In this document: piece by piece, positions 21,263 through 27,823 of the stretch | Position numbering within the stretch: the first letter of the stretch is position 1 | Layout: each line of letters begins with the position of its first letter | Assembly: GCA_029855935.1 (NCBI GenBank) | Contig: JAGSHN010000013.1 | Span: 1-30,326 of the forward strand | Length of the DNA stretch: 30,326 nt | Direction of reading: 5' to 3' | Source of the DNA: Candidatus Thorarchaeota archaeon | Lineage (GTDB): Archaea > Asgardarchaeota > Thorarchaeia > Thorarchaeales > Thorarchaeaceae | The notes under the pieces: model-generated | What the model was told of the DNA's origin: nothing | Seen by the model: only the letters and a program-made list of their open reading frames with translations | Databases searched by the model: none | Position numbers and translations under genes: made by a program

Positions 21263-21652
21263 TCACGGGTTGTCGCCAAACTCAGCGGTGACCCGGCGCA
21301 GTGACGGGGTGTCGATATTCTCCTTCACCAGCTTCAGCCCCCTCTCAGTCAATGCACCCTTGACGAACAGGTGACCTGCAGAACGGATGTAGACGAGCCC
21401 TCTCTCCTTCAGCCTCTCTAGGCTGGCGAGAACTATCTGTGTGAGCTCGTGGTCCGTCACGGAGAGCCCCGCCCCCGGTGTCTGCAACGTCTCGGTCATG
21501 CGTAGAACGTTTTTCATACTGGACAATTGCCGTCGTTTGCTCTCGTACGGGTTGGAGTATAGCCAGAGCAGCACGATGAGATCAACGACATTCAGTTCGA
21601 GTCCTGGATTGTTCTCCAAGATCTTCTTTGCGACCAGCTCGACTATGGGCAT
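21263..21652 (-). CDS. Hypothetical winged-helix protein
   Basis: SLERLKERGLV..ALTERGLKL wHTH-type ending. SD AGGAG upstream. Confidence 0.7.
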   Translation of the reverse strand: MPIVELVAKKILENNPGLELNVVDLIVLLWLYSNPYESKRRQLSSMKNVLRMTETLQTPGAGLSVTDHELTQIVLASLERLKERGLVYIRSAGHLFVKGALTERGLKLVKENIDTPSLRRVTAEFGDNP

Positions 21653-21701
21653 CCTGTTCTTCTCCTGGGGCCTCTCGCTGCCGGGACGGGGCTCACCCTC
21701 A

Positions 21702-22430
21702 TCACTGTACCAGCCTGACGGTCCCCTTCACGGGCTCGTATACCACGCCATCGTTCATTAGTCTGTCTAGTGACCTCACTGTCGCGTCCTCCGTCACACC
21801 CTTGGCGGTCATAATGGCTACAATCTCACTTGTGAGCATCTCACCCCCTTGCTCCCTGATCAGCTGGAGAATGTCATCGCTGACATCCCTGTTGGTCCGA
21901 GCATGTTTCTGCGGTGCCTCTCCGATGTATCTTATTGTCCACGGCCGCGGGGCGAAGAGTTCTCCACGAGAGAACATCTTCTCAATCTGCTTCTCCACCC
22001 AGGTCCACTCGAGGCCGTAGCGGGGACATGCCTGCTCTATCTCACTGAGTGGGCAGGGTCTCTTGGTCGCGAGGTCTCTGAACATCAACAGGAGGCGCTG
22101 CATCTTTCCAGAGGGCAGACCTCTCCCGTCTGACATCCGTGCCACCCTCGCTGCATCAATCTCGTCCTTGGGCAGCAGGTGTTCAATCCTCTCGCGCGAA
22201 CGGCGCACGGCCTCTTCGAAGTCGCCACTCTTACCGGCATTGAACCGACGAACAGCCTCTGCTGCCGCCTCAGCGGAGTCAAAGAGGGCGGTGGCCTCCC
22301 TTGAGATGTCTATGATCTTGCCACAGTAGCTGCACATACGTCTCTTCTGACCCACAGGTGCGGTCAGGAACCTTCTACATCGCGGACACATAAAGACCAG
22401 ATGGGAACGCACGGAAGGGCCTCCTGTCAT
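21702..22430 (-). CDS. Zn-ribbon (DUF1922-like) protein with two tandem winged-helix domains
   Basis: CPRC..CSYCG; KMFSRGELFAPRPWTI and RLMNDGVVYEPVKGTVRLV. TTAAATA about 25 nt upstream. Confidence 0.75.
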   Translation of the reverse strand: MTGGPSVRSHLVFMCPRCRRFLTAPVGQKRRMCSYCGKIIDISREATALFDSAEAAAEAVRRFNAGKSGDFEEAVRRSRERIEHLLPKDEIDAARVARMSDGRGLPSGKMQRLLLMFRDLATKRPCPLSEIEQACPRYGLEWTWVEKQIEKMFSRGELFAPRPWTIRYIGEAPQKHARTNRDVSDDILQLIREQGGEMLTSEIVAIMTAKGVTEDATVRSLDRLMNDGVVYEPVKGTVRLVQ

Positions 22431-22571
22431 CTCTATCTGTGACGGGCTGTCTATTTAACAGGTCCTCTCGGCAGATCCAACGGATTCGTGTCACCGCGCT
22501 CATAATGGCCTCTCCGCTTAGTCTGGGCACTGCGTACTGGCGGTCTGCTCGCAGAATGTTGGCCGAGTGGC

Positions 22572-22582
22572 AAGCTTTAAAT
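22572..22582 (+). promoter_or_regulatory. BRE/TATA-like promoter for the r-protein operon
   Basis: AAGCTTTAAAT. The same AAGCTTTAA occurs at 19109-19117, upstream of DUF211. Confidence 0.55.
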
Positions 22583-22588
22583 CATGAA

Positions 22589-22787
22589 CCGATGCGGTGA
22601 GCGGCGTAACCCTCAGAGGATGACTGTTTCAGAACCGATGGAGCAGTGCAGGCAAAGACTTCTGCTCGCGGAATCGCCTGCATACGTGTGCCGGTAGGTT
22701 CTGGGGTGGTCGTCAGGGGTCATGAACTCGCTATTCGGGCTCACTCAACGGTGAGGCATTCCAATACGAAGTCTCACTCAGCATCGG
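22589..22787 (+). ncRNA. Structured RNA or 5' leader of unknown family upstream of rpl22
   Basis: Nested helices include an 18-bp stem 22619-22636/22697-22714 with 6 G-U pairs, GTGCAGGC/GCCTGCAT, GGTGAGC/GCTCACT, GTGAGGC/GTCTCAC and CCGATGC/GCATCGG. Confidence 0.55.
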
Positions 22788-22800
22788 AAGTGTCGTAACC

Positions 22801-23265
22801 ATGCCGACGTATCGGTATAGCATAATAGGCCTAGACCCGGACAGGACCGCAATAGCCAGCGGTAGAAACTTGAGGTGTTCGCCGAAGCACAGTCGCGAGG
22901 TATGTAACGCCATCCGCGGGATGATGCTAGACAAGGCCATAGAGCTGCTGGAGAGTGTCATCGAGGAGAAGGCATGGATTCCCTACAAGCGCCACAAGAA
23001 GAAGCGCGGCCATCACCCTGGCATGCGCAAGTGGGCGGCTGGTGGCCACCCCGTCAAGGCATCGAAGTTGATACTCAAGGTCCTGAAGAATGTGGAGGCG
23101 AACGCTGATGACAAGGGCCTGGACATAGACCGCCTCAAGATTATCCACGCAGCAGCCCATCGTGGTCGTACCTACAAGAAGTACATCGAGCGAGCCTTTG
23201 GTAGGAGTACGCCCTATTTTGAGTACACGACCCATGTCGAGATAGTCGTGGAAGAGGTGGCATAG
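22801..23265 (+). CDS. rpl22: 50S ribosomal protein uL22
   Basis: SPKHSREVCNAIRGM, NVEANADDKGLD, RAFGRSTP. Confidence 0.96.
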   Translation: MPTYRYSIIGLDPDRTAIASGRNLRCSPKHSREVCNAIRGMMLDKAIELLESVIEEKAWIPYKRHKKKRGHHPGMRKWAAGGHPVKASKLILKVLKNVEANADDKGLDIDRLKIIHAAAHRGRTYKKYIERAFGRSTPYFEYTTHVEIVVEEVA

Positions 23266-24183
23266 GTGTCAGCGGTCAAGTATTTCATCGAGCAGAACAC
23301 CCGGAAGCTGAAGGTGGACGAGTTCCTGGCTCGTGAACTCAACTCTGCAGGCTATGGCGGAGTCGAGATTCGCAAGATGCCCACTCGCACAGAGGTCATC
23401 ATTCACGCCTCTCGCCCCGGCGTGGTCATTGGTCGTAGAGGGTCCAAGATCCGTGAGTTGACCGACATCCTTGAGCACGACTATGGCATTCCCAACGCGC
23501 AGGTCGAGGTCGCAGAGATTGAGAACCCGTGGCTGAATGCTCAGGTGATGGCGTCAAGGCTCGCGCGTCAGCTGGAGCGGGGTGTGAGATTCAGACGGAT
23601 GGCCTACTGGATACTCAGGAGGGTCATGAGGGCTGGGGCCTATGGCTGCGAGATCATTGTGAAGGGCAAGCTATCAAGTCGGAGAGCCCGATATCAGAAG
23701 TTCAGACAGGCAACCATTGCCAAGACTGGTGAGCCCGCAGAGCTCTTCGTTGACGAGGCTGATGACATAGCGGTCCTGAAACCGGGCGTTATCGGCGTGA
23801 AGGTCAGAATCATGAAGCCTGACGTGAAGCTGCCGGGTGTGGTCCACGTCAAGAAGCCGAAACCCAAGAAGCCAGAGGAGCTCGAGCTTGTGAAGGCTCC
23901 CGAGGAGGTCGAGGAGGCGCCTCCGGAGGCAGAGGCAATCGAGGCGGAGCTTGAGGGCATCACTGACATTGAGGATCTGAAGGAGCTTGAGGAGCTCGAC
24001 GCACTGGATCTTGTTGAGGAGGCACCACCAGCCGCAGAGCCCGCATCCGATGAGGAGGTCAAGCCCTCCGAGGAGCCGTCACAGGCTGATGAGGCGGCCC
24101 AGGAAGAAGAGAAGGACTCGCCTGTGGCTGACAAAGAGTCGCTCGAGGAACTGGACGGGCTTGGCACTGAAGGAGGCGAATGA
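23266..24183 (+). CDS. rps3: 30S ribosomal protein uS3 with long acidic C-terminal tail
   Basis: AGYGG, RPGVVIGRRG KH motif, KPGVIGVKVRIM. Confidence 0.96.
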   Translation: MSAVKYFIEQNTRKLKVDEFLARELNSAGYGGVEIRKMPTRTEVIIHASRPGVVIGRRGSKIRELTDILEHDYGIPNAQVEVAEIENPWLNAQVMASRLARQLERGVRFRRMAYWILRRVMRAGAYGCEIIVKGKLSSRRARYQKFRQATIAKTGEPAELFVDEADDIAVLKPGVIGVKVRIMKPDVKLPGVVHVKKPKPKKPEELELVKAPEEVEEAPPEAEAIEAELEGITDIEDLKELEELDALDLVEEAPPAAEPASDEEVKPSEEPSQADEAAQEEEKDSPVADKESLEELDGLGTEGGE

Positions 24184-27430: not shown

Positions 27431-27823
27431 ATGACACTACTAGACCCACTTGCTGACGCGCTGTCGAGCATCTACAACAGCGAGATCATCGGCAAGTCCG
27501 AGGTTGTCGTTGCTCCCGCCTCCAGCCTGATTGAGCGCGTTCTGCGTGTCATGCAGGCGAAGGGCTACATTGGTGAGTTTGAGCGGATAGATGACGGAAA
27601 GGCAGGTCGCTTCAGGATACAGCTGATGGGCCGTACAAACAAGTGTGGCGTAATCAAGCCGCGGTACCCCGTCAAACGCGATGGATTCGAGAAGTTCGAG
27701 AAGCGATACCTTCCTGCCTACAACTACGGTATCCTGATTGTCACAACACCAGAGGGTGTGATGACGCACGAGGAGGCAAAGAAGCGAGGTATTGGCGGCA
27801 GACTGCTGGCCTATGTGTATTGA
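27431..27823 (+). CDS. rps8: 30S ribosomal protein uS8
   Basis: [32 protein letters not shown]. Confidence 0.96.

What the first reader, a model, noticed from the sequence alone, without database searches (positions are those of the whole stretch)
22589..22787. ~200-nt highly structured RNA preceding the uL22-uS3 ribosomal operon
Seen: a long rod hairpin made of GGTGAGC/GCTCACT, GGCG/CGCT, ACCCT/GGGGT, an uninterrupted 18-bp helix (22619-22636/22697-22714) with six G-U pairs, GTGCAGGC/GCCTGCAT, an AAA bulge and an apical TTCTG-ctcg-CGGAA. A second hairpin (22751-22777) follows, and a possible closing stem CCGATGC/GCATCGG ends 13 nt before the rpl22 ATG. GAGCAG/CTGCTC offers an alternative pairing. 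The many G-U pairs point to + strand RNA rather than a DNA palindrome. If the TATA at 22576 is used, transcription starts near 22603 and the outer stems would not form. No 5S, SRP, RNase P or tRNA hallmarks were seen. Inference: a new r-protein autoregulatory leader or an independent ncRNA.
Basis: partly seen in the sequence, partly recalled or inferred. Interest (0 to 1): 0.7.

Follow-up and report, generated by a model that had tools for sequence, protein, structure and literature searches.

The report
Thorarchaeal rpl22 operon leader RNA
The ~195 untranslated bases in front of this Asgard (Thorarchaeota) archaeon's large ribosomal-protein operon fold into a conserved rod-shaped RNA that matches no described RNA family and is most likely a feedback switch bound by one of the operon's own proteins, although the binding partner is not known.

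Summary
The structure is real. The + strand of 22605-22725 folds at z = -4.2. A covariance model built from it finds exactly one copy in 81 of 86 genomes of the window's family (23 of 23 high-quality genomes, 16 of 16 genera). It finds none in 124 genomes of 26 other families of the phylum. A motif scan of about 185,000 species hit 68 assemblies; most are labelled Thor- or Promethearchaeota, the rest only 'archaeon', and none bacterial.

Across 73 distinct sequences, 92% of the cells are paired and 26 of 39 pairs show compensatory changes. The RNA always lies 55-75 nt before the rpl22 start and 26-31 nt after a conserved TTTAAA(T) box, so transcription should begin near 22605. A second hairpin of variable sequence and an invariant, weakened Shine-Dalgarno box (GGAAGUGA) complete the leader.

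There is no Rfam match, conserved reading frame, terminator or second genomic copy. 5S, SRP and RNase P RNA lie elsewhere.

Best reading: a new ribosomal-protein leader. One invariant bulge copies the core of the uS8 site of 16S helix 21, and uS8 is encoded in the operon, but model searches did not support this, so it is only a lead. This scan found the same RNA family earlier in another genome.

The parts
22569..22582 (+). Promoter: BRE-like GGCAAGC followed by the TATA box TTTAAAT (22576-22582)
   Evidence: A TTTAAA(T/A)-type box begins 26-31 nt before model position 1 in nearly all 77 relatives; a few carry variants such as CTTATAT (alignment). By the usual archaeal geometry (TATA centred near -26/-27; established knowledge) the start falls at about 22603-22607. 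TTTAAA-type boxes are rare upstream of genes in this genome.
22589..22603 (+).
   Evidence: They lie between the TATA box and the predicted start. They are strongly complementary to 22773-22787 in this genome (-20.6 kcal/mol, z = -3.2). This is absent in the other genomes of the genus and not supported family-wide (p = 0.07).
22605..22725 (+). Conserved rod-shaped core RNA (covariance model R1, 123 positions, 39 base pairs)
   Evidence: z = -4.21. One copy in 81 of 86 family genomes and 0 of 124 outside the family. 92.3% of cells paired, 26 of 39 pairs with compensatory change, slid controls 34-48%.
22609..22613 (+). P1, 5' arm (ACCCU), pairs with 22716-22720 (GGGGU)
   Evidence: All 7 pairs of the P1 consensus show changes on both sides across the family.
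22619..22636 (+). P2, 5' arm of the 18-bp helix; pairs with 22697-22714
   Evidence: 13 of 17 modelled pairs show compensatory change. Four pairs are G-U in 56-69 of 73 sequences; the fifth pair of 5'-CUGUUUC/5'-GGAGUGG is U-A in most and U-G in nine, this genome among them.
22640..22653 (+). P3 (GG), invariant internal loop and P4 5' arm (GUGCAGGC); partner strand is 22676-22692
   Evidence: 23 positions of the core are invariant in 73 of 73 distinct sequences; 19 of them lie in this block, including GGA..CAGU.CA and UG.A.ACG..UGCC. G22646-C22685 and U22647-A22682, with U22683 and A22684 bulged, have the same arrangement as 16S G597-C643, U598-A640, U641, A642.
22657..22675 (+). P5 apical hairpin (UUCUG-CUCG-CGGAA, with GA/UC below it)
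   Evidence: The 5' arm and loop (UUCUGC.CGC) are invariant or nearly so, while the 3' arm varies and keeps the pairing. The same UUCU..GCUCGCG is retained in the shorter hairpin of the sister family.
22676..22692 (+). P4 3' arm with a 2-nt bulge, invariant internal loop (GUGUG) and P3 3' arm (CC)
22697..22720 (+). 3' arms of P2 (22697-22714) and P1 (22716-22720)
22750..22778 (+).
   Evidence: A stable hairpin is predicted at this place in 84% of 73 distinct linkers. Sequences differ between genera and the stem base is often GACU/AGUC (mean z = -2.5).
22786..22792 (+). Shine-Dalgarno box GGAAGUG, 8 nt before the AUG
   Evidence: GGAAGUGA lies 6 nt before the AUG in nearly all relatives. It carries an A where the other genes of the operon have GGAGGU. 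The 16S RNA ends in ..AUCACCUC.
22801..23265 (+). rpl22 (uL22), first gene of the operon uL22-uS3-uL29-Rpp29-uS17-uL14-uL24, followed by closely spaced reading frames to the window's end (uS8 at 27431-27823)
   Evidence: Pfam matches for the first seven genes. ORF layout. The later genes, including uS8, are named from gene order and ORF size, not from a family search.

Best explanation
This is the structured 5' leader of the mRNA of the large ribosomal-protein operon that begins with rpl22. Transcription starts about 25 nt after a conserved BRE/TATA promoter, near 22605.

The first ~120 nt fold into a rod of five helices (P1-P5). Its helices covary. One internal loop, one 2-nt bulge and the apical loop are invariant in sequence. 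A second hairpin of variable sequence (P6) follows, then a conserved, deliberately imperfect Shine-Dalgarno box and the rpl22 AUG.

Inferred mechanism: when one of the operon's ribosomal proteins is made in excess over rRNA, it binds the invariant loop-and-bulge region and lowers expression of the operon, through translation initiation at rpl22 or through mRNA stability. This is how bacterial and the few known archaeal ribosomal-protein leaders work.

Shown here: the RNA structure, its strand, its conservation, its fixed position and its restriction to the family. Inferred: the start site, protein binding and the regulatory outcome.

The candidate ligand I rank first, weakly, is uS8, because the invariant bulge reproduces the core of its 16S helix-21 site. 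uL22, the first gene product, is the obvious alternative.
For: Structure and strand:
- Fold z = -4.2 on the + strand against -2.0 on the - strand.
- 18.8% of paired cells are G-U.

Conservation and covariation:
- blastn finds the core in 20 of 24 family genomes. Model R1 finds exactly one copy in 81 of 86.
- Across 73 distinct sequences, 92.3% of cells are paired and 26 of 39 pairs show compensatory change, against 34-48% paired in slid controls. In 0 of 500 shuffles was any measure reached.

Position:
- The rpl22 start lies 55-75 nt downstream wherever it could be placed (74 of 77 loci; the others are a contig end, a broken rpl22 and an ATT start).
- The TATA box lies 26-31 nt upstream in nearly all.
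- No conserved terminator-like T-run and no conserved reading frame.

The promoter, leader and rpl22 behave as one unit: in this genome the two upstream genes are inverted with a breakpoint just before the BRE/TATA.

The operon head is lineage-specific. rps19 is on another contig here, whereas it directly precedes rpl22 in three other Asgard families.

Invariant unpaired nucleotides are clustered, as expected of a protein-binding site.

The SD GGAAGUGA is invariant yet weaker than the GGAGGU of the other operon genes, which fits a regulated start.

uS8 lead:
- 5'-GU-3' opposite 5'-A-N-A-C-3' with a 2-nt bulge, all but N invariant, equals G597 U598 / A640 U641 A642 C643 of 16S helix 21.
- The roles of these rRNA nucleotides in S8 binding are described in PMC4176348.
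- uS8 is encoded in the operon, and S8 is the known repressor of the bacterial spc operon (PMC4176348).
Against: - No binding or expression data exist.
- The SD and AUG have no conserved sequestering partner, and the invariant site lies about 150 nt upstream of the AUG, so the link between binding and control is not visible in the sequence.
- No sequence-level mimicry of 23S, 16S, 5S, RNase P or SRP RNA was found.

Against uS8 specifically:
- The equivalent of the 596-644 pair is A opposite G.
- The U641 equivalent varies (U 35, G 31, A 7 of 73).
- A helix-21 covariance model built from 23 Asgard 16S sequences does not score the leader (no hit at E <= 10 in the window).
- The sister family's shorter hairpin lacks the motif.
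Confidence: 0.55

Rival explanations
1. A constitutive 5'-end element without feedback. The stable rod at the very 5' end, and perhaps a general protein bound to it, protects the long polycistronic mRNA from 5'-to-3' decay, or organises its processing or translation. No ribosomal-protein levels are sensed.
For: - P1 begins 3-4 nt after the predicted start, so the 5' end would be buried in a helix.
- The SD is not sequestered in any conserved way.
- No rRNA mimicry was detected.
Against: - A mere stabiliser needs no invariant loop and bulge nucleotides, yet 23 positions are invariant across 16 genera.
- The invariant weakened SD suggests tuned rather than maximal expression.
- The element sits in front of exactly the kind of operon that is feedback-controlled elsewhere.
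Confidence: 0.15
2. An independent or processed small RNA. The ~120-nt rod is released from the 5' UTR, or terminated before rpl22, and acts in trans or as part of an RNP.
For: - It has its own strong promoter directly upstream.
- The core is a compact, self-contained fold.
- The core is far more conserved than the linker behind it.
Against: - No terminator-like T-run lies between the core and rpl22 in most genera.
- The distance to rpl22 is fixed at 55-75 nt.
- It is never found anywhere else in any genome; there is one copy per genome, always at this spot.
- No second promoter for rpl22 is visible in the linker.
- It has no box C/D, H/ACA or tRNA features.
Confidence: 0.12
3. A riboswitch or other sensor of a small molecule, ion or temperature that controls the operon.
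For: Invariant internal-loop and apical-loop nucleotides lie in a covarying scaffold. No protein ligand has been identified.
Against: - It is an unbranched rod with no junction or detectable pseudoknot (a mutual-information scan found nothing beyond the helices).
- No conserved alternative fold exists: the GUUCUG/CAGAAC repeats that could swap partners do not covary together (read from the alignment).
- No conserved expression platform.
- Riboswitches in front of core r-protein operons are not established.
Confidence: 0.07
4. A DNA-level feature (operator palindrome, mobile-element remnant) rather than an RNA.
For: In this genome a 13-15-bp inverted repeat (22589-22603 and 22773-22787) flanks the element.
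Against: - It is single-copy in the genome.
- The helices are kept through G-U pairs and compensatory changes that only make sense in + strand RNA.
- The flanking repeat is not conserved.
Confidence: 0.02

Closest known systems
Archaeal ribosomal-protein leader candidates of Eckert and Weinberg 2020 (S15 in Halobacteria and Methanomicrobia, eL15, archaeal L4; PMC7247131), which that paper reports as the only new archaeal ones
   Same: A covarying structured RNA in the 5' UTR directly upstream of an r-protein gene or operon, restricted to one lineage, inferred from comparative genomics to bind a protein of the operon.
   Different: The structure and sequence are unrelated, with no Rfam match at gathering score or at E <= 10. 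The operon head is a different gene: that paper does not mention L22/uL22 or uS3 at all. The host lineage is different (Asgard, Thorarchaeota). No convincing rRNA mimicry was found here.
Escherichia coli S10 operon leader (L4-mediated control)
   Same: It controls, from the 5' leader, an operon that includes L22, S3, L29 and S17 (established knowledge). The regulator need not be the first gene product.
   Different: It is a bacterial element of unrelated structure. L4 is not encoded in the Thorarchaeal operon, which starts at rpl22. L4 acts through transcription attenuation as well as translation, and neither has been shown here.
Escherichia coli spc operon S8 operator, a mimic of 16S rRNA helix 21 (PMC4176348)
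   Same: uS8 is encoded in the operon. The leader has an invariant G-C pair, U-A pair and bulged N-A arranged like G597-C643, U598-A640, U641-A642. The invariant A corresponds to A642, the only nucleotide with a conserved base-specific contact to S8.
   Different: The E. coli operator lies at the L5 start inside the operon, not in the 5' leader. Here the 596-644 equivalent cannot form a Watson-Crick pair, the U641 equivalent varies, and a helix-21 covariance model does not recognise the leader. The resemblance is confined to about 7 nucleotides.
Methanococcus vannielii L1 operon mRNA site (L1 autoregulation; from established knowledge, not tested here)
   Same: It is an experimentally supported archaeal case of an r-protein repressing its own operon by binding an mRNA structure near the 5' end.
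   Different: That site is a small, clear mimic of the 23S L1 site next to the regulated start codon. Here the element is a ~120-nt rod with no recognised rRNA counterpart.

Membership tests
Ribosomal-protein leader (autogenous control element) | Lies in the 5' UTR directly upstream of an r-protein gene or operon, on the coding strand | tested here: met
   55-75 nt before the rpl22 start in 74 of the 77 loci; the other three could not be placed this way. Conserved promoter directly upstream. The + strand is required by the G-U pairs.
Ribosomal-protein leader (autogenous control element) | Conserved secondary structure supported by covariation | tested here: met
   26 of 39 pairs with compensatory change, 92.3% of cells paired against 34-48% in slid controls, 0 of 500 shuffles as high.
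Ribosomal-protein leader (autogenous control element) | Binds an r-protein encoded in the regulated operon | not testable with these tools
   No RNA-protein prediction or binding data available. The clustering of invariant unpaired nucleotides is only suggestive.
Ribosomal-protein leader (autogenous control element) | Binding changes expression of the operon | not testable with these tools
No conserved SD-sequestering helix.
Ribosomal-protein leader (autogenous control element) | Resembles the ligand's rRNA site (frequent, not obligatory) | tested here: inconclusive
   No sequence-level similarity to 23S, 16S or 5S RNA. There is a 7-nt core match to the uS8 site of helix 21, but no hit with the helix-21 model.
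uS8 operator / 16S helix-21 mimic | G597-C643 pair with U641 in a base triple, and the U598-A640 pair | tested here: inconclusive
   G22646-C22685 and U22647-A22682 are invariant. The U641 equivalent is U 35, G 31, A 7 of 73.
uS8 operator / 16S helix-21 mimic | Invariant bulged A642 | tested here: met
   A22684 (alignment A3, column 90) is A in 73 of 73 sequences.
uS8 operator / 16S helix-21 mimic | Base triple 595-(596-644) with a Watson-Crick 596-644 pair | tested here: not met
   The equivalents are A (column 46) opposite G (column 92), both invariant. In 23 Asgard 16S sequences the pair is A-U or G-C.
Any Rfam 15 family | Score at or above the family's gathering threshold | tested here: not met
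   No match in the window at gathering score. Only a chance-level lncRNA match at E = 9.5 in 22350-22900.
5S rRNA / SRP RNA / RNase P RNA (divergent copy) | Would be the genome's copy of that universal RNA | tested here: not met
   All three are found elsewhere in the genome above their cut-offs.
Kink-turn (L7Ae/eL30-type) leader | 3-nt bulge followed by tandem sheared G-A pairs, conserved | tested here: not met
   Reading the alignment: no loop has the C-stem / 3-nt bulge / GA-AG arrangement. The GA of P1's 3' arm is Watson-Crick paired.
MITE or DNA palindrome | Multiple genomic copies; symmetry equal on both strands | tested here: not met
   Single-copy. 18.8% of pairs are G-U.

The most novel reading that the evidence does not exclude
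The invariant bulge and loop of the leader are a working uS8 binding site. In Thorarchaeota, uS8 would then repress the whole operon (uL22 through at least uL18, and beyond the window's end) from its 5' leader. That would be an independently evolved archaeal counterpart of bacterial spc-operon feedback, built on a minimal copy of the 16S helix-21 core.
Probability: 0.2. Interest if true: 0.7.

Novelty: new member of a known kind. Interest (0 to 1): 0.55.

Why it matters
Very few RNA elements that regulate ribosomal-protein synthesis are known in archaea, and I found none reported for Asgard archaea, the closest prokaryotic relatives of eukaryotes. This element has unusually clean comparative support: one copy per genome, a fixed position and many compensatory changes. 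It sits at the head of the operon that encodes a large share of the ribosomal proteins.

If it is a feedback site, it shows how this lineage re-established control after the ancestral S10-spc gene cluster was split between rps19 and rpl22. It also gives a compact ~120-nt RNA with a defined invariant patch for RNA-protein recognition studies. The uS8 lead makes the ligand question directly testable with recombinant proteins.

Tried and rejected
- **Rfam:** nothing at gathering score or at E <= 10. No tRNA or tmRNA.
- **Second copy in the genome:** none.
- **Sequence mimicry of own rRNAs and other RNAs:** 23S, 16S, 5S, RNase P and SRP RNA were tested with shared k-mers, blastn-short, local alignment with shuffles, fuzzy motif search and a two-strand motif search. 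Nothing exceeded chance. A 23S stretch sharing CGCCTGCA..CCGGTAG sits in a different pairing context.
- **Helix-21 covariance model R2** (23 Asgard 16S sequences) against the window: the leader is not among the hits at E <= 10.
- **Leader model R1 against the rRNA, RNase P and SRP loci:** only chance-level hits. The best-looking one (TGCATACGTGT) lies inside a 345-aa reading frame, which I judged from its GHSGTLDP motif to be a Cbf5/TruB-type gene, and is coincidence. The weak hit on helix 21 aligns generic stems, not the S8 core.
- **Conserved reading frame in the leader:** none.
- **Conserved pairing that hides the SD or AUG:** none.
- **Mutual-information scan for tertiary or pseudoknot pairs,** including the flanks: nothing convincing beyond the helices.
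- **Alternative fold using the repeated GUUCUG/CAGAAC segments:** when P2 covaries, the apical copy does not follow (alignment).
- **Outer closing stem as a conserved feature:** rejected family-wide.
- **Kink-turn, H/ACA and C/D boxes:** absent from the alignment.
- **Calibrating the TATA-to-start distance on leaderless genes of this genome:** no usable peak.

Full report
**Setting.** Region 22431-22800 is intergenic. To the left lies a - strand gene (21702-22430; weak matches, below Pfam's cut-offs, to the zinc-ribbon-type DUF1922 family). To the right lies rpl22 at 22801, followed without gaps by uS3, uL29, RNase P protein Rpp29, uS17, uL14 and uL24. Closely spaced reading frames continue to the window's end, and from gene order I take them as eS4, uL5, uS14, uS8, uL6, eL32, eL19 and uL18. 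The window is the start of contig 1 of a 2.97-Mb, 97%-complete assembly. Record titles of relatives name the group Thorarchaeota.

The fold of 22589-22787 is far more stable than shuffles (-84.8 kcal/mol, z = -4.16, 0 of 200), while the opposite strand is unremarkable (z = -2.04). The core alone (22605-22725) gives z = -4.21. Rfam 15 has no match at gathering score, and only a chance-level one at E = 9.5. There is no tRNA and no second copy in the genome. The genome's 23S, 16S, 5S, RNase P and SRP RNAs are all elsewhere.

**Conservation.**
- blastn with 22560-22800 finds the central ~95 nt (22619-22713) at 74-85% identity in 20 of 24 genomes of the same family. All 20 fetched matches lie upstream of rpl22.
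- An alignment from the promoter to the AUG (A1) shows three conserved blocks: a TTTAAA(T) box, the core, and GGAAGUGA just before the AUG.
- I built a covariance model of the core (R1: 123 positions, 39 pairs in five helices).
- R1 finds exactly one copy in 81 of 86 genomes of the family (23 of 23 high-quality genomes, 16 of 16 genera).
- It finds none in 124 genomes of 26 other families of the phylum (stricter filters were in force).
- An exact-pattern scan for the invariant core across one genome each of 185,579 species returned 68 hits. All are in metagenome assemblies labelled Thorarchaeota, Promethearchaeota (the Asgard phylum), 'archaeon', or in one case Hermodarchaeota (a contig of the same length as one that the tools place in this family).
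- The one available genome of the sister family in the same order has a shorter (~90-nt) hairpin at the same place before rpl22. It scores weakly with R1 (E = 0.21) and keeps the apical UUCU..GCUCGCG. Homology is possible but unproven.

**Structure.** On the 77-sequence structure-guided alignment (A3, 73 distinct rows):
- 92.3% of cells form standard pairs, against 34-48% when partners are slid by 1-3 columns.
- 26 of 39 pairs carry compensatory double changes.
- No shuffle of 500 reaches any of the five measures. The alignment was fitted to the model, which favours it somewhat. A plain MAFFT alignment of 21 sequences gave the same picture (92.1% paired, 15 pairs with double changes).

In window coordinates the helices are:

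| Helix | 5' arm | 3' arm |
|---|---|---|
| P1 | 22609-22613 | 22716-22720 |
| P2 | 22619-22636 | 22697-22714 |
| P3 | 22640-22641 | 22691-22692 |
| P4 | 22646-22653 | 22676-22685 (includes a 2-nt bulge) |
| P5 | 22657-22664 | 22669-22675 |

G-U pairs make up 18.8% of paired cells, so only 73.5% would pair on the other strand. The RNA is therefore read from the + strand. In the stretch 5'-CUGUUUC/5'-GGAGUGG of P2, four pairs are G-U in 56-69 of 73 sequences. The fifth is U-A in most and U-G in nine, including this genome.

23 positions are invariant in all 73 sequences. They cluster in P3, the 5x5 internal loop, the base of P4 with its bulge, and the apical loop. Written out: GGA..CAGU.CA opposite UG.A.ACG..UGCC, and scattered positions of the apical UUCUGC.CGC.

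**Extent and promoter.**
- The TTTAAA(T) box starts 26-31 nt before model position 1 in nearly all 77 loci; a few carry variants such as CTTATAT.
- With the usual archaeal spacing (TATA centred near -26/-27; established knowledge, not measured here) transcription starts at about 22603-22607, 3-4 nt before P1.
- In this genome they are indeed strongly complementary to the pre-SD region (-20.6 kcal/mol, z = -3.2). The other genomes of the same genus lack this. Some genera (g4, many g5) show a different complementarity. A swapped-partner test over 24 representatives gives p = 0.07.
- I therefore treat the outer stems as not part of the conserved element and leave the residual complementarity unexplained.

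In all relatives examined, the two upstream genes point towards rpl22. In this genome that two-gene block is inverted in place, with the breakpoint just upstream of the BRE/TATA. The promoter, leader and rpl22 thus stayed together as a unit.

**Downstream part.**
- Wherever the rpl22 start could be placed (74 of 77 loci), it lies 55-75 nt after the model's end. The exceptions are one contig end, one locus without a readable rpl22 N-terminus, and one apparent ATT start that the search for ATG, GTG or TTG starts could not place.
- The linker differs in sequence between genera, but 84% of 73 distinct linkers fold significantly better than shuffles into a hairpin (mean z = -2.5), often closed by GACU/AGUC.
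- No conserved T-run separates the core from rpl22.
- The SD is GGAAGUGA at a fixed 6 nt from the AUG. The other genes of the operon use GGAGGU, and the 16S RNA ends in AUCACCUC. The invariant A therefore makes a conserved, weakened SD.
- No frame is open across the leader in more than a few genomes.

**What it is.** A lineage-specific, structured 5' leader of about 195 nt heads the main r-protein operon. In three other Asgard families rps19 directly precedes rpl22. In this family rps19 is elsewhere, and in the sister family the upstream neighbours are likewise not ribosomal genes. The leader thus appears where the ancestral cluster was split and rpl22 became an operon head.

The combination of covarying helices with invariant unpaired nucleotides is what protein-binding leaders look like. 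The known kind that fits is the autogenous ribosomal-protein leader. Eckert and Weinberg (PMC7247131) report four archaeal candidates (two S15, eL15, L4) and none for L22 or S3.

**How it might work, and the ligand.**
- I could not find a conserved helix that hides the SD or AUG, a conserved alternative fold, or a pseudoknot. The coupling between binding and expression is therefore inferred only by analogy.
- Sequence-level searches for rRNA mimicry were negative.
- One structural resemblance stands out. At the base of P4 there are an invariant G-C pair and an invariant U-A pair, separated on the 3' strand by a bulged N-A whose A is invariant. This is the arrangement of G597-C643, U598-A640, U641 and A642 in 16S helix 21.
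[quoted passage not shown] This genome's own helix 21 reads GGUAGGUCCC/GGGAUACCGCC (23 Asgard sequences).
- uS8 is encoded in the operon, and S8 is the repressor of the bacterial spc operon.
- Against this: the 596-644 equivalent is A opposite G, the U641 equivalent varies (U 35, G 31, A 7), the sister family's hairpin lacks the motif, and a helix-21 covariance model does not score the leader.
- I keep uS8 as a testable lead at about 0.2 probability. uL22 is the default alternative, and the ligand remains unknown.

**Rivals.**
- A constitutive 5'-end stabiliser is possible, but it does not explain the invariant loops or the weakened SD.
- An independent or processed sRNA is disfavoured by the missing terminator and the fixed linkage to rpl22.
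- A riboswitch is disfavoured by the unbranched rod and the lack of an expression platform.
- A DNA-level element is excluded by single copy number and G-U-dependent pairing.

**Earlier work in this scan.** The same RNA family was found before in another Thorarchaeal genome (finding e1-5422062). It was judged a real, family-restricted, new candidate leader with an unknown partner and no conserved kink-turn. My independent tests agree. Another note (e1-2791005) pointed out that the operon starts at rpl22 without the L3-L4-L23-L2-S19 block, which I confirmed for this genome.

**Verdict.** The element is a new ribosomal-protein-operon leader family specific to Thorarchaeota. Its regulatory function and ligand are inferred, not shown.

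Noticed in passing
window 21263-22430 (- strand) and loci L003-L022: The gene pair made of a DUF1922-like 242-aa protein and a conserved 129-aa protein without a Pfam match is inverted in place in this genome. In every relative examined both genes point towards rpl22, in the order DUF1922, 129-aa gene, promoter, leader, rpl22. The breakpoint lies between 22431 and about 22565.
   Followed up: partly
L074 (genome G013), rpl22 start: rpl22 appears to begin with ATT (..GGCAAG ATT CCA ACA TAC GG.., reading I-P-T-Y-G-Y) behind a normal GGAAGUGA box. This is either a non-canonical start codon or an assembly error.
   Followed up: no
G000 contig 23, about 1245-1300 (3' end of 16S rRNA; locus L186): Between the end of helix 45 (GCGGATGGA) and the anti-SD (ATCACCTC) there is an insert of about 29 nt that can form a hairpin (AGCCCACAAGGGCACCTTGCGGGCCATCA). 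The canonical archaeal 16S 3' end, as I recall it, has no such insert.
   Followed up: no
window 23266-24183: uS3 is 305 aa long and carries a strongly acidic (Glu/Asp-rich) C-terminal tail of about 110 aa after the S3_C domain.
   Followed up: no
window 22786-22792 and the upstream regions of 14 other operon genes: rpl22 alone uses GGAAGUG(A), while most other genes of the operon use GGAGGU-type SD boxes. The A is nearly invariant across 16 genera.
   Followed up: partly
L113:2045-2134 (- strand), genome G025, sister family: A ~90-nt hairpin sits about 85 nt before rpl22, after an A/T-rich promoter-like stretch. It has the same outer architecture (P1, P2) and an apical UUCUAAGCUCGCG, but lacks the P3/P4 block. 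It may be a reduced or ancestral form of the leader.
   Followed up: partly
window 22589-22603 with 22773-22787; the same place in genus g4 loci (e.g. L011): The stretch between the TATA box and the predicted start is strongly complementary to the pre-SD/SD region in this genome and in genus g4, but not family-wide. This could be chance, a lineage-specific feature, or use of a further-upstream start.
   Followed up: partly
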